A stretch of DNA of 40,697 nt. Origin: a virus (Duplodnaviria; Heunggongvirae; Uroviricota; Caudoviricetes). Positions 4,435-17,829 of the stretch are shown here, piece after piece. The notes beneath the pieces were generated by a model that made no database searches, was not told the origin of the DNA, and saw only the letters and a program-made list of their open reading frames with translations. Numbering within the stretch: position 1 is the stretch's first letter; each line of letters begins with the position of its first letter. A program made the position numbers and the translations under genes. The stretch lies in IMG/VR virus record IMGVR_UViG_2541047891_000003. One strand, given 5' to 3'.

Positions 4435-4513
4435 TTTGTTTTACCTCATTACAGATTTAAGGGTGAACAAATCCCTGCCATTGCTGGCATATAAAAATGA
4501 AACCGGATATTAA

Positions 4514-4902: not shown

Positions 4903-5071
4903 TATCGCGTCCTCAACAATGAATTTTGTGATGCGGTGCCTGGTGCCTCCAGGTGACGTTAACCAGTTAACAATTAACGCCGGATACAGAGAATCCACCC
5001 ATAACACTGTTTTTGGTTTTAACTGTTCCGCGTGCGCTCAGCCGCATTCACCACATCACAAAATTCACTTT

Positions 5072-5129
5072 AAAAAGGGCGGCAGAGCAGTCACGGAGTA
5101 AAACTGATACCGCCAAACGTCACCAGAAA
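5072..5129 (-). ncRNA. dicF: DicF small regulatory RNA (ftsZ-targeting sRNA)
   Basis: Minus-strand sequence TTTCTGGTGACGTTTGGCGGTATCAGTTTTACTCCGTGACTGCTCTGCCGCCCTTTTT matches the DicF sequence I recall; ends in a GC stem plus T-run; about 170 nt upstream of dicB as in Qin. Confidence 0.85.
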
Positions 5130-5463
5130 ATTGATAACAGAGGGCGTTGCAGCGGAGTTGTCACTTAAGCGTATGGTCAACCTGACAACCCGGTGTCCTC
5201 AACGGGGAAGGAATAACCCCGCCATACTTACCGCCGCGCCATTTCGCGGAGTGCCACAACCGGAAGCGCACGGTCGACGAAAATTTAACGACAGGCTATC
5301 TATGAACCAGCTACCTCGCCGTGCGCTTTCGCGTTATGGTCTGACTTTTCAGGGAAATATCCTTTCAGTAAACTGTCAGTGCCGGATGCTCACCCGTGTC
5401 CGGCGCACGCACTCCACCTCACCCGTGGAGAACTCCTTAATCACCAACCCTCAGGAGGGTGAA

Positions 5464-5739
5464 ATGTCGACTGAAAATGATGAAATCATTAACTCCCTGA
5501 TACGCCAGATTAATAATTTTGATAAAGCATTGCAGCATGCTGCGGCGCGTAGTGATATAACTCTTTTAGCAATTTCATTTCTTGCATCTGTTATGGATAA
5601 AAATGAAGTCGTACGACAGAGTCTTGTTGATTATATCGACTCGCTTCAACCCGGCACTTTCAATCATGAGAGCTTCAATCATGAGAAAGAGCATGTTAAG
5701 TCTGTAATTAATTCTCTTATTTTGAATCAAAAGAATTAA
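5464..5739 (+). CDS. Hypothetical 91-aa protein encoded antisense to the dicB operon
   Basis: ATG at 5464 preceded by a strong RBS (AGGAGGGTGAA); product MSTENDEIINSLIRQINNFDKALQ...; no family recognised; the N-terminal extension of the track ORF starting at 5131 is probably not coding. Confidence 0.5.
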   Translation: MSTENDEIINSLIRQINNFDKALQHAAARSDITLLAISFLASVMDKNEVVRQSLVDYIDSLQPGTFNHESFNHEKEHVKSVINSLILNQKN

Positions 5740-6037
5740 TGCTTTTTGTTGCAAAGTAATTTTCAAGGGGTTCTATTCGAATCCCTTTCTTTTTCATTAA
5801 CAAGCCAAACCCCTTATCAATGATGTCCATTAGATCCAGGAAGTGTTTTTCATGTAAATCCTGGTTATCAGAGAGCTGCTTCTCTTCGTACAGACCGATA
5901 AAGGCACGACGCACGTTACCGGATATAGTATCGATGGTTTCTTTTTCTACGGTACTCAGGTCAAGAGTCGCCAGTTGGGAACGAACTATATTCGCTGCCA
6001 TTTCCTGGAATTGCATTGGTAAATCTTTAAATTCCAT
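5717..6037 (-). CDS. Hypothetical 106-aa protein within the ydfABC-dicF-dicB operon
   Basis: ATG at 6037 with GAGG about 8 nt upstream, 22 nt after the ydfC stop (coupled arrangement); no family recognised. Confidence 0.55.
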   Translation of the reverse strand: MEFKDLPMQFQEMAANIVRSQLATLDLSTVEKETIDTISGNVRRAFIGLYEEKQLSDNQDLHEKHFLDLMDIIDKGFGLLMKKKGIRIEPLENYFATKSINSFDSK

Positions 6038-6059
6038 TATTAGCCTCGTTGGTTAGCTA

Positions 6060-6278
6060 TTAACGTGGGTATGTAATCATTCTGGCAATGCTTAATGCCG
6101 CTGCTTTTTGCAGCCTGGTGATATCCTGCTCCAGAGCGGACAGATTTTCAGTCTGCTTAGCCCTGGCTTCATTGGCCCATTTCAGATCCTGCGCTGCATT
6201 AATTTTCTGGCGCATCCACTCATAAAGTTCATCATCGGTATAGTCTGGCGCGATGATGACGGGTTCTCGTTTCTGCAT
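6060..6278 (-). CDS. ydfC: YdfC-like small protein
   Basis: 72-aa ORF in the position and size of Qin ydfC, directly downstream of ydfB. Confidence 0.6.
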   Translation of the reverse strand: MQKREPVIIAPDYTDDELYEWMRQKINAAQDLKWANEARAKQTENLSALEQDITRLQKAAALSIARMITYPR

Positions 6279-6307
6279 ACTGATTCCTCGCGGTGCTGTT
6301 TCGCTTA

Positions 6308-6436
6308 TCAGCCGTTAGATTTTGCCGAACTGGAAAGCGCCTGTTTAAACTCACTGAAGCTGAGAGCTTCTTCGCCTTCGGCAAGGCCTTCGAAGTATTC
6401 TTCGTAAGCCTTTTCCATGATTGCGTCGAAATCCAT
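6308..6436 (-). CDS. ydfB: YdfB-like small protein (42 aa)
   Basis: Hand-translated MDFDAIMEKAYEEYFEGLAEGEEALSFSEFKQALSSSAKSNG; not in the ORF track because it is under 60 aa; start 1 nt after the ydfA stop. Confidence 0.6.
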   Translation of the reverse strand: MDFDAIMEKAYEEYFEGLAEGEEALSFSEFKQALSSSAKSNG

Positions 6437-6437
6437 A

Positions 6438-6593
6438 TCACTCACCTGAATTTCTTTCCAGCCAGCGACGCGCGCCAGATTCGGTTTTAAACGTTTTGCT
6501 TTTGGTATACGTCATCGCGGTGAACGTACCGTCCTGGTTTGGGAACACGCCGTATACCAGAGATTCGTTGTTGCCAAGATCGATAGTATCCAT
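6438..6593 (-). CDS. ydfA: YdfA-like small protein (51 aa)
   Basis: Hand-translated MDTIDLGNNESLVYGVFPNQDGTFTAMTYTKSKTFKTESGARRWLERNSGE; length and sequence consistent with Qin YdfA from memory; not in the ORF track. Confidence 0.65.
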   Translation of the reverse strand: MDTIDLGNNESLVYGVFPNQDGTFTAMTYTKSKTFKTESGARRWLERNSGE

Positions 6594-6761
6594 GTTGACC
6601 TCATTTCCCCTTAACGCCGGGGTAGCGGAACTAAGACCTGTCGCACCGTTGTGCTTTGATGGAATACATTGTTCTCTCTAGGTGAACAAAAGTCAACATA
6701 ATGAATACATAAAAGGTAAAAAAAACCGCCTTGCGGCGGTATGATTCTGTAAAATAAAGAA

Positions 6762-7151
6762 TTATTTTTGTCGTGTTATTGGGTCGACGTATTCTGAGTA
6801 AAATTCGGTCAGTTTTTGAAGTCGCATTTGAAAAGCTGCCAGCATATTTCTACGTTCTACGGGTGGCAGGTTTCTGTAAACATCAAGCAGGGCCTTCTCG
6901 TCATCATCAAGCGCTTCTCTATTTGTCTCTTCTTTCCCTGTCAGTAGCCAAGAAAGGGAAACGTTTGTGGCTTCTGCAATTTTGGCTGCGGAATCTTTAC
7001 TGATTGTTCCTCTTTTTTTCCATGCGTTGACTGATGAACGACCTACACCAGCGATACGCGCTAAATCTGAACCACTTAAATGATGCTGTTGAGAGATCGC
7101 ATCTAACCTTTCTGCTAGCGGGGTGTCGTATTGCTTTTTTCTCATGTCCAT
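6762..7151 (-). CDS. Prophage repressor, HTH (XRE/CI-like) DNA-binding protein, functional analogue of DicA/CI
   Basis: 129-aa ORF with an HTH-like segment LSGSDLARIAGVGRSSVNAWKKRG; divergent from a Cro-like gene across an operator-rich intergenic region. Confidence 0.75.
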   Translation of the reverse strand: MDMRKKQYDTPLAERLDAISQQHHLSGSDLARIAGVGRSSVNAWKKRGTISKDSAAKIAEATNVSLSWLLTGKEETNREALDDDEKALLDVYRNLPPVERRNMLAAFQMRLQKLTEFYSEYVDPITRQK

Positions 7152-7166
7152 TTAGCAATTATAACC

Positions 7167-7250
7167 GTTCAGTGAACACTAACAATTCCTCGAGGTGTTG
7201 ACTTATGTTCGTTTTAAGTGAACAATTGTTGTGGTTAGTTGAACTGGAGG
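7167..7250. promoter_or_regulatory. Immunity-region operator/promoter cluster (palindrome GTTCAGTGAAC, repeated GTGAAC/GTTGAAC half-sites, -35-like TTGACT)
   Basis: Palindrome at 7167-7177; related half-sites at 7216-7244; TTGACT at 7198-7203; lies between the divergent repressor and cro-like genes. Confidence 0.5.
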
Positions 7251-7254
7251 TTGT

Positions 7255-7530
7255 ATGACAGCATTGGACAAAGCAATAAAGATTGCTGGTGGTATTCGTC
7301 CGCTAGGGCGTGCAATAGGGGCTTGGCCATCTCAAATACACAAATGGGCAAATGAATACAATGGTCGAGTTCCGACGGGGGAACGGGTTCGTCAAATTTA
7401 TATTGCAACTGGGGTTACTCCTCATGAATTGCGACCAGATTTATACCCGAATCCAACTGACGGGTTGCCTGCTGGAGATAAGGCTAACACACCAAATACA
7501 CCGGAGTTGATTCATGAAAATCAAGCATGA
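7255..7530 (+). CDS. Cro/DicC/YdaS-like HTH regulator
   Basis: 91-aa ORF MTALDKAIKIAGGIRPLGRAIGAW...ELRPDLYPNP; divergent from the repressor; resembles YdaS-type Cro analogues. Confidence 0.65.
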   Translation: MTALDKAIKIAGGIRPLGRAIGAWPSQIHKWANEYNGRVPTGERVRQIYIATGVTPHELRPDLYPNPTDGLPAGDKANTPNTPELIHENQA

Positions 7531-7939
7531 ACACATCCGTATGGCGATGAATGCCTGGGCGCATCCGGACGGTGAAAAAGTTCCGGCAGCTGAAATAACC
7601 CGGGCTTATTTTGAGCTGGGTATGACGTTCCCGGAGCTATATGACGACAGCCATCCGGAAGCGCTGGCTCGTAATACCCAGAAAATTTTCCGTTGGCTGG
7701 ATAAAGACACCCCTGATGCGGTTAAAAAAATTCAGGCGTTGTTACCAGCGATCGAAAAAGCAATGCCACCTTTGCTGGTGGCCCGAATGCGCAGCCACAG
7801 TTCAGCCTATTTTCGGGAACTGGTGGAGACGCGGGAACGACTGGTGAGAGACGCTGATGATTTTGTCGCAGTGGCGATCGCTGGTTTCAACCAGATGAAT
7901 CGTGGTGGCCCGGCGGGAAATATTGTGGTTGTGCATTGA
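7514..7939 (+). CDS. YdaT-like protein (CII-like regulator family)
   Basis: 141-aa ORF starting MKIKHEHI as I recall YdaT does; overlaps the end of the cro-like gene. Confidence 0.6.
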   Translation: MKIKHEHIRMAMNAWAHPDGEKVPAAEITRAYFELGMTFPELYDDSHPEALARNTQKIFRWLDKDTPDAVKKIQALLPAIEKAMPPLLVARMRSHSSAYFRELVETRERLVRDADDFVAVAIAGFNQMNRGGPAGNIVVVH

Positions 7940-8010
7940 CTGACAATATTCATACCGGATCGCTTCCGGCAATTCGTGAGTAAAAAGATTCGCTATCAGA
8001 AGAGGTGAGT

Positions 8011-9081
8011 ATGGCTAACGCCTGGCTCAGATTATGGCATGACATGCCAAATGACCCTAAGTGGCGAACAATTGCCAGGGTGTCAGGGCAGCCAATTGCA
8101 ACAGTGATGGCAGTGTATATCCACCTCCTGGTGAGCGCGTCACGAAATGTCACGCGAGGTCACATTGATGTCACGACAGAAGATTTGGCAAGTGCGCTCG
8201 ACGTGACAGAAGAGGTAATTGATTCAATTTTGCAGACGATGCAGGGGCGGGTACTTGATGGTGATTTAATCACTGGATGGGAAAAACGCCAGGTGCTGAA
8301 AGAGGACAACGGCAATATTTCGCAAACCGCAAAATCTCCTGCAGAGCGCAAGAGGGCGCAGCGAGAGAGGGAAAGAAAGCGGGAACAAAATGGAGATTGT
8401 CACGGCGCGTCACGAAATGTCACGCACATGTCACGACGAGTCACGACAGATAAAGATACAGATAAAGATACAGATCAAGAAGATCAAAACACTATGGTCC
8501 ATGGCGTAAAAAACGCCACGAACCAGGCAGGGGATGTTCAGACCGTCAATCCTGGTCAGCCAGCAGGCACGACACCGGAAGCCGATTCAGCGTATGCGCT
8601 GAAAGCCGATTCGGGCGCTGTGCAGCAGGTGATGACCGCAAGGCCGGAGCAATCACACCAACTGCAGCAGCCTGAAGCCGATTCCGCCATTCAGCGGGAA
8701 GCCGATCGGGTAGTCCCGGAAAACACCGGGCAGCCTGTGGGACGAGTGGATTATCCGGATGTGTTCGAACAGGTCTGGCGGGAATACCCGTTGCGTGCCG
8801 GGGCAAACCCGAAGAAATCCGCTTTCAGTGCCTGGAAGGCCAGATTACGCGAGGGGGTGTCACCAGAGGCCATGCTGGATGGCGTGAGGCGTTACGCAAG
8901 ATACCTTGCGGCTACCGGGAAAACGGGAACGGAATTTGTTCAGCGAGCGACGACGTTTTTTGGACCGGACCGGAATTTTGAAAACCCCTGGCTGCTCCCG
9001 GTAAGCGGCACGAACAACCAGCGTTGTGTGAATCATATTTCTGAACCGGATACCGAAATTCCGCTGGGCTTCAGGGGGTAA
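8011..9081 (+). CDS. Replication initiator / replisome organiser (O-like, YdaU-type N-terminal domain)
   Basis: ATG at 8011 with RBS AGAGGTGA upstream; N-terminal replisome-organiser-like region; iteron repeats embedded in the coding sequence. Confidence 0.65.
   Translation: MANAWLRLWHDMPNDPKWRTIARVSGQPIATVMAVYIHLLVSASRNVTRGHIDVTTEDLASALDVTEEVIDSILQTMQGRVLDGDLITGWEKRQVLKEDNGNISQTAKSPAERKRAQRERERKREQNGDCHGASRNVTHMSRRVTTDKDTDKDTDQEDQNTMVHGVKNATNQAGDVQTVNPGQPAGTTPEADSAYALKADSGAVQQVMTARPEQSHQLQQPEADSAIQREADRVVPENTGQPVGRVDYPDVFEQVWREYPLRAGANPKKSAFSAWKARLREGVSPEAMLDGVRRYARYLAATGKTGTEFVQRATTFFGPDRNFENPWLLPVSGTNNQRCVNHISEPDTEIPLGFRG
8137..8480. repeat. Iteron array (GTCACG-containing direct repeats) plus GATAAAGATACA tandem repeat; candidate replication origin inside the initiator gene
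   Basis: 19-mer GCGTCACGAAATGTCACGC at 8137-8155 and 8407-8425; TCACGACAGA at 8171-8180 and 8441-8450; GATAAAGATACA x2 at 8450-8473. Confidence 0.6.
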
Positions 9082-9121
9082 GTGTTTATTTCAGCTCATG
9101 AGGTAATTTTCAGGAGGACTT

Positions 9122-9529
9122 GTGGCAAAAGTTTTTACACAAGAAGAGCGGGAAAAAATTAAAGGGCAGGTTGTTGAACTTGTACGCCAGAGTGGGCGCG
9201 AGACGTTACGACAACTGGAAGCTAAAACCGGGGCAACAAGATATCTGATGAGTGTTCTCGCCAGAGAGCTGGTTGCCAGTGGCGATGTATACAATTCTGG
9301 CTACGGGTTATTCCCGTCTGAACAGGCTCGTAAGGACTGGCAAAACGCCCGCAAAAAACTCTCAAGGGCAAAGCTGAAGAAAAAAACACCTGTGGTTGAT
9401 CCGGACCTTATCTGGTCGTTACCAGACGGAGAAATACGTCGTTATGACAGGCGTCAGAACATAATCTGTAGCGAGTGCCGGGAAAGCGAAGTTATGCAGC
9501 GTATACTAACGTTCTATTGGGGAATATAG
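9122..9529 (+). CDS. Hypothetical protein (possible winged-helix DNA-binding protein)
   Basis: 135-aa ORF with GTG start and GGAGG 4 nt upstream; no family recognised. Confidence 0.5.
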   Translation: MAKVFTQEEREKIKGQVVELVRQSGRETLRQLEAKTGATRYLMSVLARELVASGDVYNSGYGLFPSEQARKDWQNARKKLSRAKLKKKTPVVDPDLIWSLPDGEIRRYDRRQNIICSECRESEVMQRILTFYWGI

Positions 9530-9544
9530 CCACTAAATAAGGTA

Positions 9545-9856
9545 ATGAACCAAATGAACACGGAAAAAGCGAAAACGCAGCTCAGGATAATGCTTGCCGG
9601 TCCGGCTGCGAGTTATGCGACACATTCACCAGCCATAAAAAAGGTTCTTGATGAACTGGAGGCCAAAGACAAGCGCATTGCAGAACTGGAGGCAAGGGAA
9701 GTCCAGCTACCGGCTGGCTATGAACTTCGATATGGACACCCGATAAATGCTGATGAGCGCCATGTCATGATACCTAAGGAAAATGGCAGCTGGATTTATC
9801 TGGCTGATTTAGAGCGCGCACTACGTGTTGCTGGCATTCGCATCAAAGGAGAGTGA
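9545..9856 (+). CDS. Hypothetical protein
   Basis: 103-aa ORF; the start may instead be the ATG at 9554. Confidence 0.5.
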   Translation: MNQMNTEKAKTQLRIMLAGPAASYATHSPAIKKVLDELEAKDKRIAELEAREVQLPAGYELRYGHPINADERHVMIPKENGSWIYLADLERALRVAGIRIKGE

Positions 9857-9857
9857 C

Positions 9858-10214
9858 GTGGAAATAAAACCAGAAGATGAGTTAAGTAATATTGTTTTAT
9901 TTCCGGTAAAAGAAGATGACCCACGTAATCAGGTTAATTTTCTTTATGAGCCATCGGAAAGACCATATTGCCATCACGCTTCTGTCCGGGTTGATGAAAA
10001 AGAGCGTCAGGTCCGCTGTAAAATCTGCGGTGCAGTTGTGGAGCCGTTTGACTGGATGCTCTCTGTGGCGAAAAGAGAAACCAGACTGGCAGATGATGTA
10101 AGGCTATTGCGTCAGGAGGAACGGGAAAGGCGGAAAAATATAGAAAAGCTAATTCAGATTGAGCGTAACGCAAAAGCGCGGATACGCAGAGCGACAAAAT
10201 CCAGAACTGAATAA
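9858..10214 (+). CDS. Hypothetical zinc-ribbon protein
   Basis: GTG at 9858 preceded by AAGGAGAG; CHH...CKIC motif; basic C-terminus. Confidence 0.5.
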   Translation: MEIKPEDELSNIVLFPVKEDDPRNQVNFLYEPSERPYCHHASVRVDEKERQVRCKICGAVVEPFDWMLSVAKRETRLADDVRLLRQEERERRKNIEKLIQIERNAKARIRRATKSRTE

Positions 10215-10307
10215 TTAAATTTAGCACGGTTAAAAATTTAATCCTTTACCGGAGGGATTTCTGCACCCTCAGAACAGCAGGAGACCACCCGAAAGGGCGG
10301 TAGTGAA

Positions 10308-10490
10308 ATGCGAAAGTTCAAAGTAATTATTGAAACTGGAATAGCTGGTGGAGATTTTGAGGATGTATTCGAAGTGGACGATGACGCAACACCTGATGAA
10401 ATTCATGACGAAGCAAAAGAAATTTTCTTTAACTACTGCAATTACTCATATCACGAAATAAAAGACGAAGAGGAAGAACAAAATGGCTGA
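10308..10490 (+). CDS. Hypothetical acidic small protein
   Basis: 60-aa ORF, 8-nt overlap with the next small ORF. Confidence 0.45.
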   Translation: MRKFKVIIETGIAGGDFEDVFEVDDDATPDEIHDEAKEIFFNYCNYSYHEIKDEEEEQNG

Positions 10491-10659
10491 TTTTGGTTCA
10501 ACTAAATATAACGCCAGTTTTGAAGAATGGCATGAACTGTTAATGGACTATGCAGAGTTACGCGGTGGAAGTGCCGCCGATGCTGAAGCATGGCGTGATG
10601 ACTATGAAGCAGGAAAAACTCCGGTCGAAGCATATTGTGATGAGTGGGGCTATGAATGA
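10483..10659 (+). CDS. Hypothetical 58-aa protein (not in the ORF track)
   Basis: Hand-translated MADFGSTKYNASFEEWHELLMDYAELRGGSAADAEAWRDDYEAGKTPVEAYCDEWGYE; ATGA overlap with the downstream gene at 10656. Confidence 0.5.
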   Translation: MADFGSTKYNASFEEWHELLMDYAELRGGSAADAEAWRDDYEAGKTPVEAYCDEWGYE

Positions 10660-11171
10660 GCGAGATTAATTATCAGGAAGGGCATGAAACGGCAGGGCAG
10701 GCAAAACCAGTTGCATGGCGATATCGCTACGTGAAAAAAGGCGTTACGGACTTTCAGGAGAAGATGTGGGTTGGTGACTGGAAATATGTACCGACAAAAG
10801 AGGATTGCAACGACAGGCCGAGCTATGAGATTCAGGCATTATTCACTACCCCGCCAGTCCCGGTGATATCAGAAGGACTGGTTAAAGCCGTGCGCTTTTA
10901 TGAACAGGTAAAGCGTGAGAATCCACCAGTCGAAACAGGAGCATGGAAAGATGCTGTTGATTGGGTACTCAAAGAGGCCTGCTGTGCTGTCATTCTGGGT
11001 AAAGCCGACAATCCACTAGCATCCAGTAATCAGGTTGGCGAATTAACAATGTGGGTTAAACGACTGGTCAGTCAACTGAAAAAAGCTAATCCAGACTGCA
11101 AATTACCGGAGATGGCGATGGATTACCTGAAACGAAATGGACTGATAAGCGTGGAGGATGTTTTACGATGA
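10656..11171 (+). CDS. Hypothetical protein
   Basis: 171-aa ORF, translationally coupled to its neighbours. Confidence 0.6.
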   Translation: MSEINYQEGHETAGQAKPVAWRYRYVKKGVTDFQEKMWVGDWKYVPTKEDCNDRPSYEIQALFTTPPVPVISEGLVKAVRFYEQVKRENPPVETGAWKDAVDWVLKEACCAVILGKADNPLASSNQVGELTMWVKRLVSQLKKANPDCKLPEMAMDYLKRNGLISVEDVLR

Positions 11172-11251
11172 CCTGGCCTGAAGCATTCACAACGGTAGGA
11201 ATCGCACTGGCGGTGGCGCTGGTGGTGTATTCGATTTGCCGCTGGGGGTGA
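11168..11251 (+). CDS. Hypothetical 27-aa hydrophobic peptide (not in the ORF track)
   Basis: ATGA overlap with the upstream stop; MTWPEAFTTVGIALAVALVVYSICRWG is a single TM helix. Confidence 0.35.
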   Translation: MTWPEAFTTVGIALAVALVVYSICRWG

Positions 11252-11294
11252 TAAGTGGAATAGTGCGGGGTATCGTGCAGCCCCGCTGATTTGA

Positions 11295-11468
11295 TTATTT
11301 ATTTGGGGAGACAATGTCCTGAAGCGTGACGATTACTTCTTCATCTGTATCTGTATTTCGGAGTTGATATGTAATGTCGTCGTTTCTAATAATTTGCACT
11401 ACAAGCCATTCTCCATTTTTTTCACATAAGTGAACAGTACTGTTTTCCGATATACCATGAACGGTCAT
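11295..11468 (-). CDS. Hypothetical 57-aa protein (not in the ORF track)
   Basis: Hand-translated MTVHGISENSTVHLCEKNGEWLVVQIIRNDDITYQLRNTDTDEEVIVTLQDIVSPNK; AAGG about 9 nt upstream; AT-rich. Confidence 0.4.
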   Translation of the reverse strand: MTVHGISENSTVHLCEKNGEWLVVQIIRNDDITYQLRNTDTDEEVIVTLQDIVSPNK

Positions 11469-11679
11469 TTTTATACCTTTTGTGTTGTGTGAAGGAGCAG
11501 TATAGTCAGAAATGAGACAAGTGAAAGGGGATAGAAAGTAATAGTTTGTTTTTGTAGAATTGCTGCGGGTGCTTGAGGCTATCTGCCTCGGGCATGAACA
11601 CCAACGGCAGATAGAGAAAAGCCCCAGTTAACATTACGCGTCCGGCAAGACGCTTAACATTAATCTGAGGCATATCTGT

Positions 11680-11880
11680 ATGCGACACATAAAGATTAGC
11701 CTCTTAACAGTAAGAAATCAACTAACAGGGGGCTGTAATGCGAAGGAGCTATGTGTTTTGTCTGGTGGTGGTTTGCATCACCATTCTGATATTTGTCGGG
11801 ATGGTTCGCGGTTCGCTATGCGAGCTGCACATCAGGCAGGGAAACACAGAGCTTTCAGCGTATTTAGCCTACGAAGTTGA
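11680..11880 (+). CDS. mok: mok-like overlapping reading frame of a hok-family locus
   Basis: 66-codon ORF starting upstream of, and overlapping in another frame, the hok-like toxin ORF, as in hok/mok/sok loci. Confidence 0.4.
   Translation: MRHIKISLLTVRNQLTGGCNAKELCVLSGGGLHHHSDICRDGSRFAMRAAHQAGKHRAFSVFSLRS
11693..11721 (-). promoter_or_regulatory. sok: Candidate promoter for a Sok-like antisense RNA (minus strand: -35 TTGATT, 17-bp spacer, -10 TAATCT)
   Basis: Promoter-like hexamers on the minus strand positioned so the transcript would be complementary to the mok start region. Confidence 0.35.
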
Positions 11881-11890
11881 AAAACGTTAA
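11738..11890 (+). CDS. hok: Hok/Gef-family type I toxin (50 aa)
   Basis: Hand-translated MRRSYVFCLVVVCITILIFVGMVRGSLCELHIRQGNTELSAYLAYEVEKR; matches the Hok/Gef pattern (TM helix, SLCE motif, conserved C-terminal AYxAYE); GGGGG RBS upstream; not in the ORF track. Confidence 0.85.
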   Translation: MRRSYVFCLVVVCITILIFVGMVRGSLCELHIRQGNTELSAYLAYEVEKR

Positions 11891-11961
11891 GAGCTACGGC
11901 GGGGAGCAATTCCCGCCACTCTTTAAGTTGTCAGGTATCCTCAATGCACCCGCACTTAACC

Positions 11962-12012
11962 CGCTTTAGCGCTGATTTATGGGGATCCCTCAGCGCTTCG
12001 GCGGGTTTTTTG
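11962..12012 (+). terminator. Strong Rho-independent terminator (nested hairpin CCGC..GCGCTGA...TCAGCGC..GCGG then TTTTTT)
   Basis: Long imperfect hairpin followed by T-run 12007-12012; about 70 nt after the hok stop, consistent with a hok mRNA 3' end. Confidence 0.7.
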
Positions 12013-12093
12013 TTGTTTATTTTCGGTGAGCATGATGCATCTGGTTGTACTGATGTGGCTGGCTGATTCTGTTATTCAGGTGGCTTATTGCTG

Positions 12094-12121
12094 TTGATTG
12101 GTATGTCTTCACGGCTAGAAT
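12094..12121 (+). promoter_or_regulatory. Sigma70-like promoter candidate (TTGATT, 16-bp spacer, TAGAAT)
   Basis: Good hexamers with 16-bp spacing; followed by the perfect 12-bp palindrome CCCCTTAAGGGG at 12160-12171. Confidence 0.45.
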
Positions 12122-12201
12122 CGAGGATCTTAAGTAGCGCGCAGGGAGAAGAGGGATGGACCCCTTAAGGGGAGGTGTTTAAAGTTCACGGGATTTTGGT
12201 T

Positions 12202-12369
12202 ATGAACGATAAGGAATTAATTGCTGCGCTCTCTGTACCTGGTAATTATGAAGTAATAGTTCTTGAGAATGGTGAATTTATCGTAATGCCATTGCCACCC
12301 GATGTTATTCTGATCACCAAAGAATCGCATGCGGATTCGGTCAGTCACTTCAGCATTAAGAAAGACTAG
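12202..12369 (+). CDS. Hypothetical small protein
   Basis: ORF MNDKELIAALSVPGNYEVIVLENGEFIVMPLPPDVILITKESHADSVSHFSIKKD; start uncertain (GTG at 12175 sits immediately after the RBS). Confidence 0.4.
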   Translation: MNDKELIAALSVPGNYEVIVLENGEFIVMPLPPDVILITKESHADSVSHFSIKKD

Positions 12370-12435
12370 ATTATAATGCCGTAGTTAAAGCCAGCCTGAA
12401 CAACTGGCGTCTGTCGCACCATTACGAGGATAGTA

Positions 12436-12714
12436 GTGGTGCATTACAAGAAAATTAACAATTCTGATAATACAGCCGTCTTTGCCAGCAGGCACGGGCG
12501 GCGTTCTCATGCATTTAAATCTGACTGGTTCCAGCATGACCCATGCACTGAAGAACAGGCCGAATGGCTGATTCAGAACTATCGCAGACGTGGGTGTGAG
12601 TTTAGGAAAGCCCTCAGCCTCGATTATCGTCACTGGATAATCTACGTCAGGCTCCCTTATTCCGAACGCCCACCACGCCCGTCCCGCACATTCCAGCAAC
12701 GGATCTGGAGGTAA
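12436..12714 (+). CDS. Hypothetical protein
   Basis: 92-aa ORF with GTG start and GAGG 6 nt upstream; directly precedes the ydfU-like gene. Confidence 0.5.
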   Translation: MVHYKKINNSDNTAVFASRHGRRSHAFKSDWFQHDPCTEEQAEWLIQNYRRRGCEFRKALSLDYRHWIIYVRLPYSERPPRPSRTFQQRIWR

Positions 12715-12715
12715 C

Positions 12716-13765
12716 GTGCGGGTATTACTTCGACCTGTTCCGATACCGGAACTCGGGCTGGTGGTCCTTAAACCAGGCCGTGAATCCATGCAGGTATTTC
12801 ATAACTCTCGAGTGCTGGTGGAGCCGGAACCGAAAAGCATGCGCGGCCTGCCATCCGGGGTCGTCCCTGCCGTTCGCCAGCCGCTGGCTGAGGATAAATC
12901 ATTACTGCCATTTTTCAGCGATGAGCGGGTGATTCGTGCTGCTGGCGGCGCTGGCGCATTGTTTGACTGGTTACTGCGCCATGTTAAATCCTGCCAGTGG
13001 CCACACGGCGATTATCATCACAGCGAAACCGTCATTCACCGTTATGGTACCGGCGCGATGGTGTTGTGCTGGCACTGCGACAACCAGTTGCGTGACCAGA
13101 CATCCGAATCACTCGGGCAACTTGCTCATCAAAACCTGTCAGCATGGATGATTGACGTCATACGCCATGCAATGAATGGCACACAGGAGCGGGAATTATC
13201 GCTGGCTGAATTATCCTGGTGGGCAGTCTGCAATCAGGTGGCGGACGCGCTACCGGAGACAGTATTACGTCGTTCTCTGAGGTTACGTGCGGAAAAAATC
13301 CGCTCGGTGTACCGCGAAAGCGACATCATGCCGGGAGAGCAGACAGCCACCAGCATACTGAAGCAGCGCACAAAAAATATTGTGCTATCGCCTCACGCCC
13401 ACCAGCAACAGAACTCACCGCAGGAAAAGGCGGTGGTCAGCATTGCTGTTGATCCTGAGTCTCCGGAATCTTTCATGAAGCGACCTAAACGTCGCCGTTG
13501 GGTAAATGAGAAATATACGCGCTGGGTAAAGACACAGCCGTGTGCGTGTTGTGGTAAGCCAGCCGACGATCCCCATCACCTGATTGGTCACGGTCAGGGA
13601 GGGATGGGAACAAAGGCCCACGATATTTTCACGCTACCGTTGTGCCGGGAACATCACAATGAACTTCATGCGGATCCGCTGGCGTTCGAAGAAAAGCATG
13701 GTTCCCAGGTTGATTTAATTTTTCGTTTTCTTGATCACGCCTTTGCAACCGGCGTGCTCGGGTAA
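12716..13765 (+). CDS. ydfU: YdfU-like protein (DUF968, Cys/His-rich C-terminus)
   Basis: 349-aa ORF; C-terminus CACCGKPADDPHHLIGHGQGGMGTKAHD...CREHHNELH; same length as Qin YdfU. Confidence 0.7.
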   Translation: MRVLLRPVPIPELGLVVLKPGRESMQVFHNSRVLVEPEPKSMRGLPSGVVPAVRQPLAEDKSLLPFFSDERVIRAAGGAGALFDWLLRHVKSCQWPHGDYHHSETVIHRYGTGAMVLCWHCDNQLRDQTSESLGQLAHQNLSAWMIDVIRHAMNGTQERELSLAELSWWAVCNQVADALPETVLRRSLRLRAEKIRSVYRESDIMPGEQTATSILKQRTKNIVLSPHAHQQQNSPQEKAVVSIAVDPESPESFMKRPKRRRWVNEKYTRWVKTQPCACCGKPADDPHHLIGHGQGGMGTKAHDIFTLPLCREHHNELHADPLAFEEKHGSQVDLIFRFLDHAFATGVLG

Positions 13766-13777: not shown

Positions 13778-14152
13778 ATGCGTATAGAGTTTGTTTTGCC
13801 TTATCCGCCGACGGTGAATACTTACTGGCGACGTCGTGGCAACACATATTTTGTATCAAAAGCCGGTGAGCGTTATCGTCGTGATGTGGCGCTCATTGTT
13901 CGCCAGCAGCGACTGAAATTAAACCTGTCCGGAAGGCTGGCGATAAAGATTATTGCAGAGCCACCGGATAAGCGCCGTCGTGACCTGGACAATATTCTGA
14001 AAGCACCACTGGATGCGCTGACGCATGCGGGACTGCTTATCGATGACGAGCAGTTTGATGAAATCAATATTGTGCGAGGTCAGGTCGTTCCTGGTGGTCG
14101 GCTGGGCGTGAAGATTTACGAAATAATGCATGACGGGCAGGTCCAAAAATGA
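13778..14152 (+). CDS. rusA: RusA-family Holliday junction resolvase
   Basis: 124-aa ORF with the RRRDLDNxxKAxxDALT motif typical of RusA. Confidence 0.85.
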   Translation: MRIEFVLPYPPTVNTYWRRRGNTYFVSKAGERYRRDVALIVRQQRLKLNLSGRLAIKIIAEPPDKRRRDLDNILKAPLDALTHAGLLIDDEQFDEINIVRGQVVPGGRLGVKIYEIMHDGQVQK

Positions 14153-14970
14153 AACTGGAAGATTTACCGAAATACTATTCCCCGAAATCGCCAGGCCTGA
14201 CTGATGCATCCGCCTCGACATCAAAAGATGCACTGAGTATCACTGATGTGATGGCTGCACAGGGCATGACACAGAACCGGGCTGAGATGGGATTTTCTGC
14301 GTTCCTGGGGAAAATGGGCATTAGTATGAACGACAGGGCGCGGGCAACAGAATTACTGGCAGATTATGCATTAAGTCAGTGCGATCGCGTGGCGGCGTTA
14401 AGAAAACTTCCGGCAGAAATAAAACCGGCAGTGATGCGCATTATGGCTTCGTATGCTTTTGAGGATTATGCCCGCAGTGCAGCGAGTAAAAAGCAGTGCC
14501 CTTGTTGCGGTGGGAAAAAATTTATTGAAAGCGTAGTTTTTACAAACAAGGTCCGGTATCCGGATGGTAAACCGCCGGTATGGGCAAAGTGTACAAAGGG
14601 TGTGTATCCGTCTTACTGGGAAGAATGGAAAAAAATCCGGGAGGTGGTGAAAGTTTCTTGTCCTGAATGTAAAGGGAAGGGGGAGATTTCCACTGCCTGT
14701 AAAGACTGCCGTGGGCGTGGTGTTGCCATTCATCGTGAAGAGTCGGAAAAACGGGGTATGCCTGTAATCAGGAACTGCCAGCGTTGTGGCGGTCGGGGCT
14801 ATGAAAGACTACCATCAACGGAGGCATTTAATGCCATACGCAAAGTGACGAGTGCTATCACGCTTGATACGTGGAAAAAATCAGTGAAACGCTTTTACGA
14901 TACGTTGGTGGTTCGGTTTGACATTGAAGAGGCATGGGCGGAGCGGCAGTTAAAGAGGGTAACGCGATAG
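14149..14970 (+). CDS. quuQ: Late-gene antiterminator Q (phage 82/Qin QuuQ-like, zinc-finger type)
   Basis: 273-aa ORF with multiple CxxC pairs; typical position upstream of the lysis genes. Confidence 0.75.
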   Translation: MKLEDLPKYYSPKSPGLTDASASTSKDALSITDVMAAQGMTQNRAEMGFSAFLGKMGISMNDRARATELLADYALSQCDRVAALRKLPAEIKPAVMRIMASYAFEDYARSAASKKQCPCCGGKKFIESVVFTNKVRYPDGKPPVWAKCTKGVYPSYWEEWKKIREVVKVSCPECKGKGEISTACKDCRGRGVAIHREESEKRGMPVIRNCQRCGGRGYERLPSTEAFNAIRKVTSAITLDTWKKSVKRFYDTLVVRFDIEEAWAERQLKRVTR

Positions 14971-14975: not shown

Positions 14976-15003
14976 TTGATTTTTCCCGAATCTGTGGTAA
15001 ATT
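14976..15003 (+). promoter_or_regulatory. pR'-like late promoter candidate (TTGATT, 16-bp spacer, TAAATT)
   Basis: Hexamers just downstream of the Q stop; TAAATT resembles the lambda pR' -10 as I recall it. Confidence 0.5.
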
Positions 15004-15052
15004 TTCTCTAACGATGGGCGTTTTATGCCTGACGTTACAAGGATTTTTACAG

Positions 15053-15074
15053 CCCGCCATCGAGCGGGTTTTTT
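15053..15074 (+). terminator. tR'-like Rho-independent terminator (CCCGC-catcga-GCGGG then TTTTTT)
   Basis: 5-bp GC stem plus T-run about 50 nt downstream of the candidate pR' start, implying a short 6S-like transcript. Confidence 0.55.
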
Positions 15075-15209
15075 ATATCTGGAAAGCGGTGCATAACGTT
15101 AAACGTGATGGCGATTGCGCAATGAGTTTCTCCTGCTCTGAAGTCTCTTGACTGCATGGAATCTCCTTTGTTATGTAAGGTGAGTTAATGTTTTAAAATT
15201 GTTAGAGAG

Positions 15210-15929
15210 ATGGGTATGGATGACAGCACTCTGCTGAGGAACTCTTCACTTTTTATTGCTTATATGGGCTGTCTTGGATGGGGAAGCGCTTATTTCTATG
15301 GATGGGGGACTTCCTTTTACTATGGCTTTCCATGGTGGATCGTCGGGGCTGGCGTTGATGATGTGGCCCGAAGTTTGTTTTATGCTGTGAGCGTTATCGT
15401 TATATTCCTTACTGGATGGGGAGTAGGTATTGTTTTCTTTTTAGGCATAAAACAAAAAAACAATATACAGAATTTGAGTTTTATCAGACTTTTTCTGGCA
15501 ATATTGCTGCTTTTTATTCCGCCTGTTCTGGAGTTTTCGGTAATTCATCAGCACGTTGAGCCAGATGTGCTGTTTTTTTGTGTTATTGCTGCCTTTACAA
15601 TTACGCTTTTTGTCAGGTCAGGAGGAAGACTTATTTCAGTCAAATGTTTTTCGGAAGTGTCTTTTATTCGCCATCACCGAATTGAGTTTATTATGGCTGG
15701 ATTCATGATTTATTTCTGGACATTCTCTCTTATTGCCGGTTGGTATAAACCTCAGTTTAAGAGGGAATATCAGACGATCCACTATGAGAATACTTGGTAT
15801 TACGTTCTTGCACGCTATGATGATCGTCTGGTTTTATCGAAATCGTACAGTAATGGGAGTTCTGCATTCGTTATACTTAATAGCGGGCAGATTGATGACT
15901 TTGAAATTAATGTAGTCAGAGTTCGTTAA
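15210..15929 (+). CDS. Hypothetical polytopic inner-membrane protein (about 5 TM helices plus a ~70-aa C-terminal soluble domain); moron between Q and the tRNA/lysis genes
   Basis: 239-aa ORF, AT-rich, Trp/Phe/Tyr-rich TM segments; possible own promoter TTGACT-17-TTATGT near 15160; no family recognised. Confidence 0.6.
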   Translation: MGMDDSTLLRNSSLFIAYMGCLGWGSAYFYGWGTSFYYGFPWWIVGAGVDDVARSLFYAVSVIVIFLTGWGVGIVFFLGIKQKNNIQNLSFIRLFLAILLLFIPPVLEFSVIHQHVEPDVLFFCVIAAFTITLFVRSGGRLISVKCFSEVSFIRHHRIEFIMAGFMIYFWTFSLIAGWYKPQFKREYQTIHYENTWYYVLARYDDRLVLSKSYSNGSSAFVILNSGQIDDFEINVVRVR

Positions 15930-16051: not shown

Positions 16052-16127
16052 GGCCCTTTAGCTCAGTGGTGAGAGCGAGCGACTCATAATCGCCAGGTCG
16101 CTGGTTCAAATCCAGCAAGGGCCACCA
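16052..16127 (+). tRNA. ileZ: tRNA-Ile2 (anticodon CAU, lysidine type; could alternatively be tRNA-Met)
   Basis: Cloverleaf with acceptor GGCCCTT/AAGGGCC, anticodon loop CTCATAA, T-loop TTCAAAT, CCA end; close to E. coli ileX as I recall it. Confidence 0.8.
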
Positions 16128-16128
16128 A

Positions 16129-16205
16129 CCGCCACTAGCTCATCAGGAAAGAGCGTCAACCCTTTAAGTTGAGAGTGCGAGGTTCGAGTCCCCGGTGGCG
16201 GTCCA
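16129..16205 (+). tRNA. tRNA with atypical anticodon loop CCTTTAA (anticodon UUU = Lys if canonical; C at position 33)
   Basis: Acceptor CCGCCAC/GTGGCGG, D-arm GCTC..GAGC, anticodon stem TCAAC/GTTGA, T-loop TTCGAGT, CCA end; identity uncertain. Confidence 0.6.
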
Positions 16206-16207
16206 GT

Positions 16208-16283
<76 letters not shown>

Positions 16284-16286
16284 TAT

Positions 16287-16361
<75 letters not shown>

Positions 16362-16367: not shown

Positions 16368-16492
16368 GTCTTTCAGTCTGCGATGATGGGAAATCCCTGA
16401 GTGACTGAAAGACGTTTAAGTTATGAATGATCGCTTTTTTTGCAAAATTGCTGTGCAGAAATACTAACCTTCGGGCAGGCGATCATTCATAA
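16368..16492. repeat. Two long inverted repeats: 11-bp arms GTCTTTCAGTC/GACTGAAAGAC and 14-bp arms TTATGAATGATCGC/GCGATCATTCATAA
   Basis: Perfect arms at 16368-16378/16403-16413 and 16421-16434/16479-16492, between the tRNA cluster and the holin. Confidence 0.7.
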
Positions 16493-16652: not shown

Positions 16653-16868
16653 ATGAAATCCATGGACAAAATTTCAACGGGCATTGCCTACGGCACCTCC
16701 GCAGGCAGTGCTGGCTACTGGTTTTTACAGTGGCTTGATCAGGTCAGTCCGTCACAGTGGGCTGCGATTGGTGTACTGGGGAGTCTGGTTCTGGGCTTGC
16801 TGACGTATCTGACAAACCTTTATTTCAAGATTAAAGAAGATAAGCGTAAGGCTGCGAGAGGTGAATAA
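16653..16868 (+). CDS. S: Class II holin / pinholin (phage 21 S21-like, dual-start MKSM)
   Basis: 71-aa ORF, two TM segments, near-identical to S21 as I recall it; RBS GGAGGTGA upstream. Confidence 0.9.
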
Positions 16869-17365
16869 TGCCGCCATCATTACGCAAGGCTGTTGCTGCT
16901 GCTATTGGTGGTGGGGCTGTTGCCATAGCGTCTGTGCTCATCACTGGTCCGAGTGGTGACGATGGCCTGGAAGGTGTCAGCTACATACCATACAAAGATA
17001 TCGTTGGCGTATGGACTGTATGTCACGGACACACCGGAAAAGACATCATGCTCGGTAAAACGTATACCGAAGCAGAATGCAAAGCCCTCCTGAATAAAGA
17101 CCTTGCCACGGTCGCCAGACAAATTAACCCGTACATAAAAGTCGATATACCGGAAACAACGCGCGGCGCTCTTTACTCGTTCGTTTACAACGTGGGCGCT
17201 GGCAATTTCAGAACATCGACGCTTCTTCGCAAAATCAACCAGGGTGATATCAAAGGTGCGTGTGATCAGCTACGTCGCTGGACATACGCTGGTGGTAAGC
17301 AATGGAAAGGTCTCATGACTCGCCGTGAGATTGAGCGTGAAGTCTGTTTGTGGGGGCAACAATGA
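16868..17365 (+). CDS. R: SAR endolysin (lysozyme with N-terminal signal-anchor-release domain, R21-like)
   Basis: 165-aa ORF with a Gly/Ala-rich SAR N-terminus and a lysozyme domain; overlaps the holin stop. Confidence 0.9.
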
Positions 17366-17829
17366 GCAGAGTAACCGCGATTACCTCCGCTCTGGTTATC
17401 TGCATCATCGTCTGCCTGTCGTGGGCTGTTAATCATTACCGTGATAACGCCATCGCTTACAAAGAGCAGCGCGACAAAAACGCCAGAGAGTTGAAGCTGG
17501 CGAACGCCACCATCGCTGACATGCAGCAGCGTCAGCGTGATGTTGCTGCGCTCGATGCAAAGTACTCGAGAGAATTAGCCAATGCGAAAGCTGAAAATGA
17601 AACTCTGCGCGCTGATGTTGCCGCTGGTCGTAAGCGCCTGCGGGTCAATGCCAGTTGCTCCGCAGCCGTGCGTGAATCCACCGGACCCACCAGCGTGGAT
17701 AATGCAACCATCCCCCGACTGGCAGACACCGCTGAACGGGATTATTTCACCCTCAGAGAGCGGCTGATGACGATGCAGATGCAACTGGAAGGGGCACAGG
17801 AGTATATCCGCACTCAGTGCATTAAGTAG
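17362..17829 (+). CDS. Rz: Rz i-spanin
   Basis: ATG at 17362 overlapping the R stop (ATGA); N-terminal TM helix then coiled-coil. Confidence 0.85.
17582..17767 (+). CDS. Rz1: Rz1 o-spanin lipoprotein embedded in the +1 frame of Rz
   Basis: 61-aa ORF fully inside Rz; lipobox LVVSAC; proline-rich. Confidence 0.8.

What the first reader, a model, noticed from the sequence alone, without database searches (positions are those of the whole stretch)
15076..15929. AT-rich polytopic membrane protein moron at the Q/tR'-to-tRNA position (the Stx-locus-equivalent site)
A 239-aa protein with about five aromatic-rich TM helices and a ~70-aa C-terminal soluble domain sits between the late terminator and the tRNA cluster. 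This is the position where lambdoid phages carry morons such as toxins or exclusion/defence genes. It is markedly AT-rich compared with its flanks and has its own candidate promoter (TTGACT-17-TTATGT near 15160). I recognise no known family, so it is the best candidate in this window for an undescribed accessory function such as superinfection exclusion, abortive infection or a membrane effector.
Basis: inference. Interest (0 to 1): 0.7.

Follow-up and report, generated by a model that had tools for sequence, protein, structure and literature searches.

The report
Uncharacterised TfpB/STM1630-family membrane moron after Q
The gene is real: a prophage "extra" gene for a five-helix inner-membrane protein sitting exactly where related phages carry Shiga toxin. 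It belongs to an already catalogued family (Pfam TfpB, NCBI "STM1630 family") whose function nobody has established, so it is a fair but not new puzzle.

Summary
An intact ORF (15210/15216-15929, 237-239 aa, 39.6% GC against about 51% in the flanks) lies between the Q antiterminator with its pR'/tR' signals and four tRNA genes, upstream of the lysis cassette.

"No known family" is outdated:
- Near-identical RefSeq proteins are named "STM1630 family protein".
- Homologues carry Pfam PF27470 (TfpB) and match PHROG 1521 (unknown function).
- A profile reaches Moraxella TfpB, the ORF in the type IV pilin locus.

The gene is variable cargo. Prophages with the same hokD-DUF968-RusA-Q module carry other genes here: a DNA methylase, IS200, a TerB pseudogene or stx2e. 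One Stx2j prophage carries this gene directly upstream of stx2j.

It is under purifying selection (dN/dS 0.06-0.21). A conserved promoter-like element travels with it. The model shows five TM helices and a small periplasmic beta domain, with no structural relative in PDB or BFVD. Defence and lysis profiles do not match. Clean deletions of the Salmonella orthologue gave no motility or macrophage phenotype.

Best reading, at low-to-moderate confidence: a lysogenic-conversion envelope protein that acts alone at the periplasmic face of the inner membrane. Superinfection exclusion remains possible. Interest is moderate.

The parts
14149..14970 (+). Late-gene antiterminator Q (273 aa)
   Evidence: PF03589 Antiterm, E 2e-50; PHROG 127
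14976..15003 (+). Candidate late promoter pR' (TTGATT-N16-TGgTAAATT)
   Evidence: Read directly from the sequence. It falls below the scan threshold. Inferred from its position just after Q.
15051..15080 (+). Intrinsic terminator (tR'-like) ending the short pR' leader
   Evidence: Stem of 7 pairs (5 G-C), loop of 6, then TTTTTATATCT. Conserved upstream of homologues in 434, EDL933 and E. albertii.
15148..15177 (+). Promoter-like element that travels with the gene: -35 TTGACT (15148-15153), 18-nt spacer, -10 TATGTA (15172-15177) preceded by TG as in an extended -10 (TGtTATGTA, 15169-15177)
   Evidence: Conserved in the window, phage 434, EDL933, E. albertii, Escherichia sp. MOD1 and an ETEC plasmid with unrelated upstream DNA. 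Not called by the consensus scan. Activity not tested.
15205..15209 (+). Shine-Dalgarno-like GAGAG serving the ATG at 15216
   Evidence: Read from the sequence. Spacing fits 15216, not 15210.
15216..15929 (+). TfpB/STM1630-family inner-membrane protein gene (237 aa; 239 aa if the ATG at 15210 is used)
   Evidence: ORF; PHROG 1521, E 1e-87; homologues carry PF27470; RefSeq name 'STM1630 family protein'; dN/dS 0.06-0.21; AF2 model pLDDT 81 with five TM helices and a C-terminal beta domain.
16052..16361 (+). tRNA cluster: CAU (Met by ARAGORN, Ile by PGAP), Lys-UUU, Thr-UGU, Gly-UCC
   Evidence: ARAGORN; Rfam RF00005, 45-74 bits; PGAP annotation of the 99% identical locus. No terminator was found between the ORF and the tRNAs.
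16653..17829 (+). Lysis cassette (P21-type holin, lysozyme, Rz), which marks the downstream edge of the cargo slot
   Evidence: PF04971, PF00959, PF03245

Best explanation
This is a prophage moron of the TfpB/STM1630 family (Pfam PF27470).

What is shown:
- It is a self-contained cassette, a promoter-like element plus one gene, inserted directly downstream of tR'.
- It is variable cargo under purifying selection.
- Its conservation is concentrated at the periplasmic face.

What is inferred:
- It is transcribed from its own sigma70-type promoter in the lysogen, and by Q-modified read-through during lytic growth.
- The product is a five-helix inner-membrane protein, N-terminus in the cytoplasm. 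Its most conserved surface faces the periplasm. That surface is the aromatic/glycine-rich upper half of TM1, the GFPWW loop, the ARSL start of TM2 and a small C-terminal beta domain.
- It works alone, with no genetically linked partner, on a conserved envelope component at the outer face of the inner membrane.
- It serves the lysogen as a lysogenic-conversion or host-association factor rather than phage morphogenesis or lysis.

The molecular target is unknown.
For: Family membership.

Variable cargo at one slot behind the same hokD-DUF968-RusA-Q module. The gene also sits behind at least three other Q types.

Conserved promoter-like element, retained on an ETEC plasmid that has no Q or tR'.

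AT-rich composition.

Purifying selection.

Topology and model. Conservation peaks in TM1, periplasmic loop 1 and the start of TM2.

Stand-alone gene with changing neighbours in Pasteurellaceae, Neisseria and unnamed metagenomic contigs.

Taxonomic range. All hits that carry an organism name are Enterobacterales, Pasteurellaceae, Neisseriaceae or Moraxella, apart from two MAG bins labelled Acinetobacter and Veillonella. From general knowledge, those four groups are largely host-associated.

Salmonella orthologue STM1630. It lies next to sseJ. It is listed among the genes co-regulated with SPI-2 under Salmonella's virulence regulators (PMC2639726). It has its own transcription start (10.1101/689075). 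The same preprint chose it for macrophage assays on the strength of earlier RNA-seq work.

Virulence-gene neighbours: LT, stx2j, cdtABC and an RTX operon.
Against: No phenotype is known.
- A clean STM1630 deletion had wild-type motility (PMC4534456). This contradicts the earlier screen (PMC4219756).
- The deletion showed no macrophage replication defect (10.1101/689075).

The gene is dispensable. It is interrupted by IS1 in strain KE51 and is a pseudogene in E. coli 536.

The promoter is inferred only and fails a strict consensus scan.

Toxin adjacency may merely reflect shared insertion hotspots.

No catalytic motif, structural relative or interaction partner was found, so the mechanism is not specified.
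Confidence: 0.4

Rival explanations
1. Superinfection exclusion or abortive infection. The inner-membrane protein blocks DNA entry by incoming phages, or triggers membrane failure on infection, and so protects the lysogen.
For: It occupies a classic moron slot and has a promoter-like element of its own. It is polytopic in the inner membrane with a periplasm-facing conserved surface. Alleles within E. coli are strongly diversified, at 44-88% aa identity. There is a faint AbiC match.
Against: The PADLOC match is 14.9 bits, E 0.0036, over 58 residues, and is not meaningful. dN/dS is low, with no sign of diversifying selection overall. Stable stand-alone chromosomal copies exist outside prophages in Pasteurellaceae, Neisseria and Moraxella. 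The PHROG category is unknown.
Confidence: 0.2
2. Accessory factor for type IV pilin-like proteins (type IV pili or type II secretion pseudopilins). On this reading the prophage copy tunes pilus or secretion assembly in the lysogen, as the position of the name-giving Moraxella tfpB in the pilin locus suggests.
For: Moraxella TfpB is a full-length homologue: 27% identity over residues 12-235, E 3e-22, and profile E 1.6e-66. It lies directly downstream of a PF00114 pilin gene, among other pilin genes. Size and N-in/C-out membrane architecture resemble the TfpY/FimB pilin accessory proteins, which promote pilus assembly (PMC11841053). From general knowledge, the family's taxa are classic type IVa pilus and competence clades.
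Against: Pilin adjacency was seen only in Moraxella. No type IV pilin N-terminal motif occurs within 6 kb in 30 other loci, and no pilin gene was found in five further contexts. The TfpY-like architecture, three TM helices plus a large alpha/beta periplasmic domain, differs from five TM helices plus a beta domain of about 55 aa (against PMC11841053). Homology to TfpY/FimB could not be tested.
Confidence: 0.12
3. Lytic-cycle helper. As the first gene of the late transcript, it would modulate holin timing or membrane state before lysis.
For: It is the first ORF downstream of pR'/tR', so Q-dependent read-through must transcribe it. It is a membrane protein lying 5' of the holin.
Against: Close relatives of this phage lack it altogether and go straight from Q to the tRNAs and holin. 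A complete holin-endolysin-spanin set is present separately. Family members occur in non-phage chromosomal and plasmid contexts. No lysis-related PHROG or Pfam match was found.
Confidence: 0.05
4. Decaying hitch-hiker with no current function.
For: Pseudogenised or IS-interrupted copies exist. No phenotype has been found in Salmonella (PMC4534456; 10.1101/689075).
Against: The window copy is intact and full length. dN/dS is 0.06-0.21 across alleles. The family is conserved from Enterobacterales to Neisseria and Moraxella, with invariant residues.
Confidence: 0.05

Closest known systems
Pfam PF27470 'TfpB' = NCBI 'STM1630 family protein' = PHROG 1521 (function unknown)
   Same: Full-length, colinear sequence homology. 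Length is about 240 aa. It carries the conserved AY.YGWG...YYG.PWW...ARSL N-terminal block and the YFW...G.YKP / WYYVLAR C-terminal blocks. A 99.6% identical copy of the gene in a RefSeq genome already carries the family name.
   Different: Nothing structural. The window copy is one allele, found at 99% identity or more in 42 records of complete E. coli genomes. It is followed by four tRNAs rather than DUF3927 plus a SASA esterase as in EHEC prophages.
Phage 434 CPT_434_68 'putative membrane protein' and its EDL933 prophage orthologue WP_001302581.1
   Same: 58% aa identity. Same position immediately after Q and tR', and the same conserved promoter-like element.
   Different: They sit behind different Q types (Q82-like, and a 207-aa antitermination protein in EDL933). 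They are followed by DUF3927/TciB, a small membrane protein and a SASA esterase instead of tRNAs.
Salmonella STM1630
   Same: Same family, about 49-50% aa identity for the S. arizonae and diarizonae orthologues next to sseJ. AT-rich horizontally acquired singleton with its own promoter (10.1101/689075).
   Different: It is chromosomal, beside the effector genes sseJ and steB, with no recognisable prophage. It is listed with the SPI-2 co-regulated genes (PMC2639726). No confirmed phenotype.
Moraxella TfpB (ORF in the type IV pilin inversion locus)
   Same: Family founder by name. 27% identity across nearly the whole length, E 3e-22.
   Different: It lies downstream of a pilin gene and between pilin cassettes. 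The window gene has no pilin neighbour. To my knowledge the function of Moraxella tfpB is also unknown.
TfpY/TfpX/TfpZ/FimB-like pilin accessory proteins (P. aeruginosa, D. nodosus)
   Same: Similar size (235-245 aa). Short cytoplasmic N-terminus, odd number of TM helices and a periplasmic C-terminal domain. The gene follows a terminator (PMC11841053).
   Different: They have three TM helices and a large mixed alpha/beta periplasmic domain, against five TM helices and a small all-beta domain here. They are always pilin-linked. Sequence relationship was not tested.
Classical lambdoid morons in the late region (stx, bor, lom, nanS-p)
   Same: Optional gene in a conserved phage backbone, with deviant GC and transcription independent of or added to the late operon. 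Here it occupies literally the stx slot.
   Different: Those have known functions. This one has none, and no terminator of its own was detected.

Membership tests
Pfam PF27470 TfpB / NCBI STM1630 family | Significant full-length sequence similarity to family members, including the name-giving proteins | tested here: met
   Homologues at 97% identity carry PF27470. The profile hits Moraxella 'protein tfpB' at E 1.6e-66. Pairwise comparison gives 27% identity over 224 residues, E 3e-22. A 99.6% identical copy of the gene is annotated in RefSeq as WP_000342820.1, 'STM1630 family protein'. The S. arizonae orthologue sits next to sseJ. The local Pfam and NCBIfam copies lack the model, so no direct HMM score was obtained.
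Pfam PF27470 TfpB / NCBI STM1630 family | Architecture: about 240 aa, polytopic membrane N-terminal part plus a short C-terminal beta domain, with the conserved aromatic/Gly block | tested here: met
   Hydropathy. AF2 model with pLDDT 81.1. Invariant A27 Y28 W32 G39 W42 A53 R54 S55 L56 G73 G177 Y198 across 59 sequences.
Phage moron | Present in some and absent from other closely related phages, at a fixed site | tested here: met
   vB_EcoS-689R5 has Q followed directly by the tRNAs. PhiR47_1 and Evi have other ORFs. Behind the same Q module, other genomes carry a methylase, IS200, TerB or stx2e.
Phage moron | Base composition different from the surrounding phage genes | tested here: met
   39.6% GC against 51-52% in the flanks.
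Phage moron | Own promoter | tested here: inconclusive
   TTGACT-N18-TGtTATGTA is conserved in six loci, including a plasmid context, but it falls below the consensus-scan threshold. No expression data are available for E. coli.
Phage moron | Own terminator | tested here: not met
   No terminator-like site lies between 15929 and the first tRNA.
TfpY/FimB-like pilin accessory proteins | Encoded immediately downstream of the major type IV pilin gene | tested here: not met
   No pilin N-terminal motif occurs in the fetched Enterobacterales and Pasteurellaceae loci. In the window the neighbours are Q upstream and the tRNA cluster downstream.
TfpY/FimB-like pilin accessory proteins | Three TM helices followed by a large periplasmic alpha/beta domain (PMC11841053) | tested here: not met
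   The model has five TM helices, and only residues 186-237 form a five-strand beta domain.
TfpY/FimB-like pilin accessory proteins | Sequence or profile homology to TfpY, TfpX, TfpZ or FimB | not testable with these tools
Known anti-phage defence / exclusion membrane proteins (PADLOC-DB v2) | Match to a defence-system profile | tested here: not met
   Only AbiC at E 0.0036, 14.9 bits, residues 56-114.
Known anti-phage defence / exclusion membrane proteins (PADLOC-DB v2) | Protection phenotype | not testable with these tools
   Needs plating assays.
Lambdoid lysis proteins (holin, antiholin, spanin) | Match to holin or spanin families, and fixed membership of the lysis cassette | tested here: not met
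   No Pfam or PHROG lysis match. The holin, endolysin and Rz genes are separate, at 16653-17829. The gene is absent from close relatives and present outside phages.

The most novel reading that the evidence does not exclude
The TfpB/STM1630 family is an unrecognised class of stand-alone inner-membrane factors acting on type IV pilin-like substrates, meaning type IV pili or type II secretion pseudopilins. On this reading, lambdoid prophages and toxin-bearing elements (Stx2j phage, LT plasmid, cdt and RTX loci) spread it to re-tune pilus or secretion function. One possible effect would be shutting out pilus-dependent phages. Another would be aiding toxin export in the lysogen.
Probability: 0.08. 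Interest if true: 0.7.

Novelty: already known. Interest (0 to 1): 0.38.

Why it matters
The gene family occurs, whole or as fragments, in at least 22% of complete E. coli genomes. It takes the first position of the late operon in many lambdoid prophages, including EHEC prophages and at least one Stx2j phage, where it lies directly upstream of the toxin genes. Its Salmonella orthologue is listed with the genes co-regulated with SPI-2.

Even so, no function, partner or structural relative is known. Assigning one would fill a recurrent blank in Stx-phage and prophage maps. It would also give a first function to the long-unexplained tfpB ORF of the Moraxella pilin locus. As it stands, this is a correctly spotted but already catalogued gene of unknown function.

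Tried and rejected
- **Local profile libraries.** Pfam-A and NCBIfam gave no hit, because PF27470 and the STM1630 model are newer than or absent from the local copies. The family name came from precomputed annotations instead.
- **Defence profiles.** PADLOC gave only a non-significant AbiC fragment.
- **First structure model.** The 32-sequence alignment gave a poor model (pLDDT 58.8) and was discarded. The 59-sequence alignment gave pLDDT 81.1.
- **Pilin linkage.** A motif scan of 30 loci and five more contexts found pilins only in Moraxella.
- **tRNA-codon link.** The ORF's use of AUA, AAA, ACA and GGA is not distinctive compared with neighbouring genes.
- **Rfam.** Only the four tRNAs matched.
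- **Literature.** Searches for PF27470, the STM1630 family, PHROG 1521, phage 434 morons and lambdoid defence hotspots found no functional study. The old Moraxella tfpB papers are not held.
- **A3 alignment.** It was too divergent to use for a genome scan.

Full report
**Observation**

The window holds the right arm of a lambdoid prophage. In order it carries:
- DUF968 (12716-13765)
- RusA (13778-14152)
- a Q antiterminator of the PF03589 type (14149-14970)
- the ORF in question (15210-15929)
- four tRNA genes (16052-16361)
- a P21-type holin, lysozyme and Rz, then HNH and the small and large terminase subunits

Just after Q the sequence reads TTGATT-N16-TGgTAAATT. A clean intrinsic terminator follows at 15051-15070 with a T-run. 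This is the expected pR'/tR' arrangement, though the promoter is my inference.

The ORF is intact. Its GC content is 39.6%, against 50.1% for the window and 51-52% for both flanks. All homologues align from the second ATG (15216). PGAP uses that start, and the GAGAG at 15205-15209 is correctly spaced for it. The product is therefore most likely 237 aa.

**Family**

The local Pfam-A and NCBIfam copies also gave nothing. Several other sources do place it:
- It matches PHROG 1521 (unknown function) at E 1e-87.
- A 99.6% identical copy of the gene in a RefSeq genome is annotated as WP_000342820.1, 'STM1630 family protein'.
- Every homologue in the large protein collection carries the precomputed Pfam family PF27470, named TfpB.
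- A profile of diverse members retrieves the Moraxella protein labelled 'protein tfpB' at E 1.6e-66.
- The pairwise alignment with that protein is colinear over residues 12-235 (27% identity, E 3e-22).
- In Moraxella the gene lies directly downstream of a pilin gene, among further pilin cassettes. From my own knowledge, this is the classical tfpQ/tfpI inversion locus.
- The S. arizonae and diarizonae homologues (about 50% identity) sit beside an sseJ-like GDSL lipase gene. That makes them orthologues of STM1630.

The family is small: only 72 representatives at 50% clustering among 1.84 billion proteins. All hits that carry an organism name are Enterobacterales, Pasteurellaceae, Neisseriaceae or Moraxella, apart from two MAG bins labelled Acinetobacter and Veillonella.

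**Cargo status**

The gene is optional at a fixed site.

Related phages with the same tRNA set:
- Phage vB_EcoS-689R5 goes straight from Q to the tRNAs.
- PhiR47_1 has two unrelated small ORFs before the same four tRNAs.
- Phage Evi, whose Q gene 3' end and pR'/tR' region are 95% identical to the window, has a TerB-domain ORF and no tRNAs.

Complete E. coli genomes with the same hokD-DUF968-RusA-Q module carry, in this slot:
- a small ORF plus a DNA methyltransferase plus tRNAs (strain 81009)
- the same plus stx2e (STEC316)
- IS200 plus tRNAs (CFT073)
- a TerB pseudogene, DUF3927 and a SASA esterase (O157:H7)

So this is literally the Stx slot.

The gene also sits behind other Q types:
- Q82-like in phage 434
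- a different, 207-aa antitermination protein in EDL933
- PF06530-type in Yersinia enterocolitica
- a Q of a different size and annotation in E. coli CFE299

In strain 2012C-4221 the order is Q, this gene (87.7% nt identity), tRNA-Ile, stx2jAB and the SASA esterase.

Copies or remnants also occur elsewhere:
- beside eltAB on an ETEC plasmid
- as a pseudogene with a tRNA-Arg in an E. coli 536 island
- next to lpxR in C. rodentium
- on an IncFII-like Salmonella contig

At least 1197 of 5426 complete E. coli genomes carry the family or a fragment of it. The window's allele, at 99% identity or more, is in 42 records, mostly extra-intestinal isolates such as IHE3034.

**Is it functional, and how is it expressed?**

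Nei-Gojobori dN/dS against eight other alleles is 0.06-0.21 wherever dS is not saturated. The protein is therefore under purifying selection.

As quoted, its -10 is weak, and the consensus scan did not list it. Read one base on, it becomes TTGACT-N18-TATGTA, with the TG placed as in an extended -10 (TGtTATGTA). That block is conserved upstream of the homologues in phage 434, EDL933, E. albertii, Escherichia sp. MOD1 and the ETEC plasmid. In the plasmid everything further upstream is unrelated. This is good comparative evidence that a promoter travels with the gene, but it is not proof.

Because the gene lies downstream of tR', Q-modified polymerase must also read through it late in infection. 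No terminator separates it from the tRNAs.

In Salmonella, STM1630 has its own mapped start (10.1101/689075). It is listed among the genes co-regulated with SPI-2 (PMC2639726). The same preprint selected it for macrophage assays on the basis of earlier RNA-seq work.

**Protein**

With a 59-sequence alignment, AlphaFold2 gives pLDDT 81.1 and pTM 0.73. The model has:
- helices 3-38, 49-80, 91-113 (kinked at the prolines), 118-138 and 157-183
- two short helices in the 139-156 loop
- a five-strand beta domain at 186-237

The positive-inside rule places the K/R-rich loops 81-93 and 136-158 in the cytoplasm. The N-terminus is therefore cytoplasmic, and loop 39-50 and the C-terminal domain are periplasmic.

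Conservation is highest in the upper half of TM1, periplasmic loop 1 and the start of TM2 (AY.YGWG..YYG.PWW.V..G....ARSL). It is lowest in TM4 and the cytoplasmic loops. The functional surface therefore faces the periplasm or the outer leaflet.

**Mechanism**

Nothing in the sequence specifies a chemistry. What the data do say is this:
- **(a) Not a lysis or structural protein.** It is absent from close relatives and present outside phages.
- **(b) Works without a linked partner.** Its neighbours change in every lineage examined.
- **(c) Found in a narrow, largely host-associated set of taxa.** It often lies next to virulence cargo: stx2j, LT, cdtABC, an RTX operon and sseJ.
- **(d) Periplasm-facing conserved surface**.

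On that basis I favour, at about 0.4, a lysogenic-conversion envelope factor acting at the outer face of the inner membrane.

Superinfection exclusion or abortive infection (0.2) fits the slot and the membrane location. It has no profile support and sits poorly with stable non-phage chromosomal copies.

A pilin-accessory role (0.12) is suggested by the Moraxella context and by a loose resemblance to TfpY/FimB proteins (PMC11841053). However, pilin adjacency was found only in Moraxella, and the architectures differ.

A lysis-timing role and 'junk' are unlikely.

Against all active-function readings, clean STM1630 deletions showed no motility change (PMC4534456; the earlier hypermotility call in PMC4219756 was not reproduced) and no macrophage defect (10.1101/689075).

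**Verdict**

The finding is real and well described. Its positional inference, a moron at the Stx-equivalent site, is strongly confirmed. The gene is not an unrecognised family. It is an already annotated member of the TfpB/STM1630 family, whose function remains unknown. Interest is moderate (0.38). The gene is common, conserved and sits beside Shiga toxin genes in some phages. Nothing here is surprising to a specialist, and no mechanism can yet be assigned.

Noticed in passing
L043 (NZ_CP027437.1, E. coli 2012C-4221) 2439-5813: In this Stx2j prophage the order is Q, TfpB/STM1630-family gene (87.7% nt identity to the window), tRNA-Ile, stxA2j, stxB2. The family can therefore be co-cargo directly upstream of Shiga toxin rather than an alternative to it.
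   Followed up: partly
L008 (ETEC1721 plasmid NZ_CP122871.1) 2982-5709: A 79% identical copy lies about 870 bp from eltAB (heat-labile enterotoxin) and is transcribed divergently from it. It keeps the same promoter-like element but has no Q or tR'. This may be a relic of a phage origin for the LT locus.
   Followed up: partly
L020 (Glaesserella parasuis) 5974-9017; L014 (Mesocricetibacter MAG) 5980-12683: Distant family members lie convergent to cdtCBA (CDtoxinA domains confirmed) and to an RTX toxin/HlyB/HlyD operon. Repeated toxin adjacency across orders could be chance or could reflect shared insertion hotspots.
   Followed up: partly
window 16052-16361: All four phage tRNAs read A-ending codons: CAU anticodon (Met by ARAGORN, Ile by PGAP, so probably lysidine-modified Ile-AUA), Lys-UUU, Thr-UGU and Gly-UCC. 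The moron's use of these codons is not clearly higher than that of neighbouring genes.
   Followed up: partly
window 16368-16413 and 16421-16492: Two perfect inverted repeats lie between tRNA-Gly and the holin gene: 11-nt arms with a 24-nt loop, and 14-nt arms TTATGAATGATCGC/GCGATCATTCATAA with 44 nt between them. Function unknown.
   Followed up: no
window 15549-15582: A terminator-like hairpin (9-bp stem, then TTTTTTTGTG) lies inside the ORF, at codons of about 114-125. The peptide here is not conserved in other alleles, so it is probably fortuitous, but it could attenuate read-through to the tRNAs.
   Followed up: no
window 15794-15821: A promoter-like site, TTGGTA-16-TATGAT, lies within the 3' part of the ORF and points towards the tRNA cluster.
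   Followed up: no
L001 (phage 434) 1666-2625 and L030 (C. rodentium) 4863-5823: An lpxR lipid A deacylase gene lies near the family member in both phage 434 (upstream of Q) and C. rodentium (immediately adjacent, split into two ORFs). This may be linked envelope-modifying cargo.
   Followed up: no
L031 (Moraxella CP155576.1) 581-7606: The Moraxella pilin locus around tfpB contains several partial or complete pilin cassettes interleaved with two PD-(D/E)XK 'transposase' family ORFs (PF12784, 295-303 aa). No Piv-type invertase was seen within the stretch examined.
   Followed up: no
NZ_CP141080.1 (E. coli KE51) 2286100-2287595: The 99.6% identical allele is interrupted by an IS1 element, so the gene is dispensable in that lysogen.
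   Followed up: no
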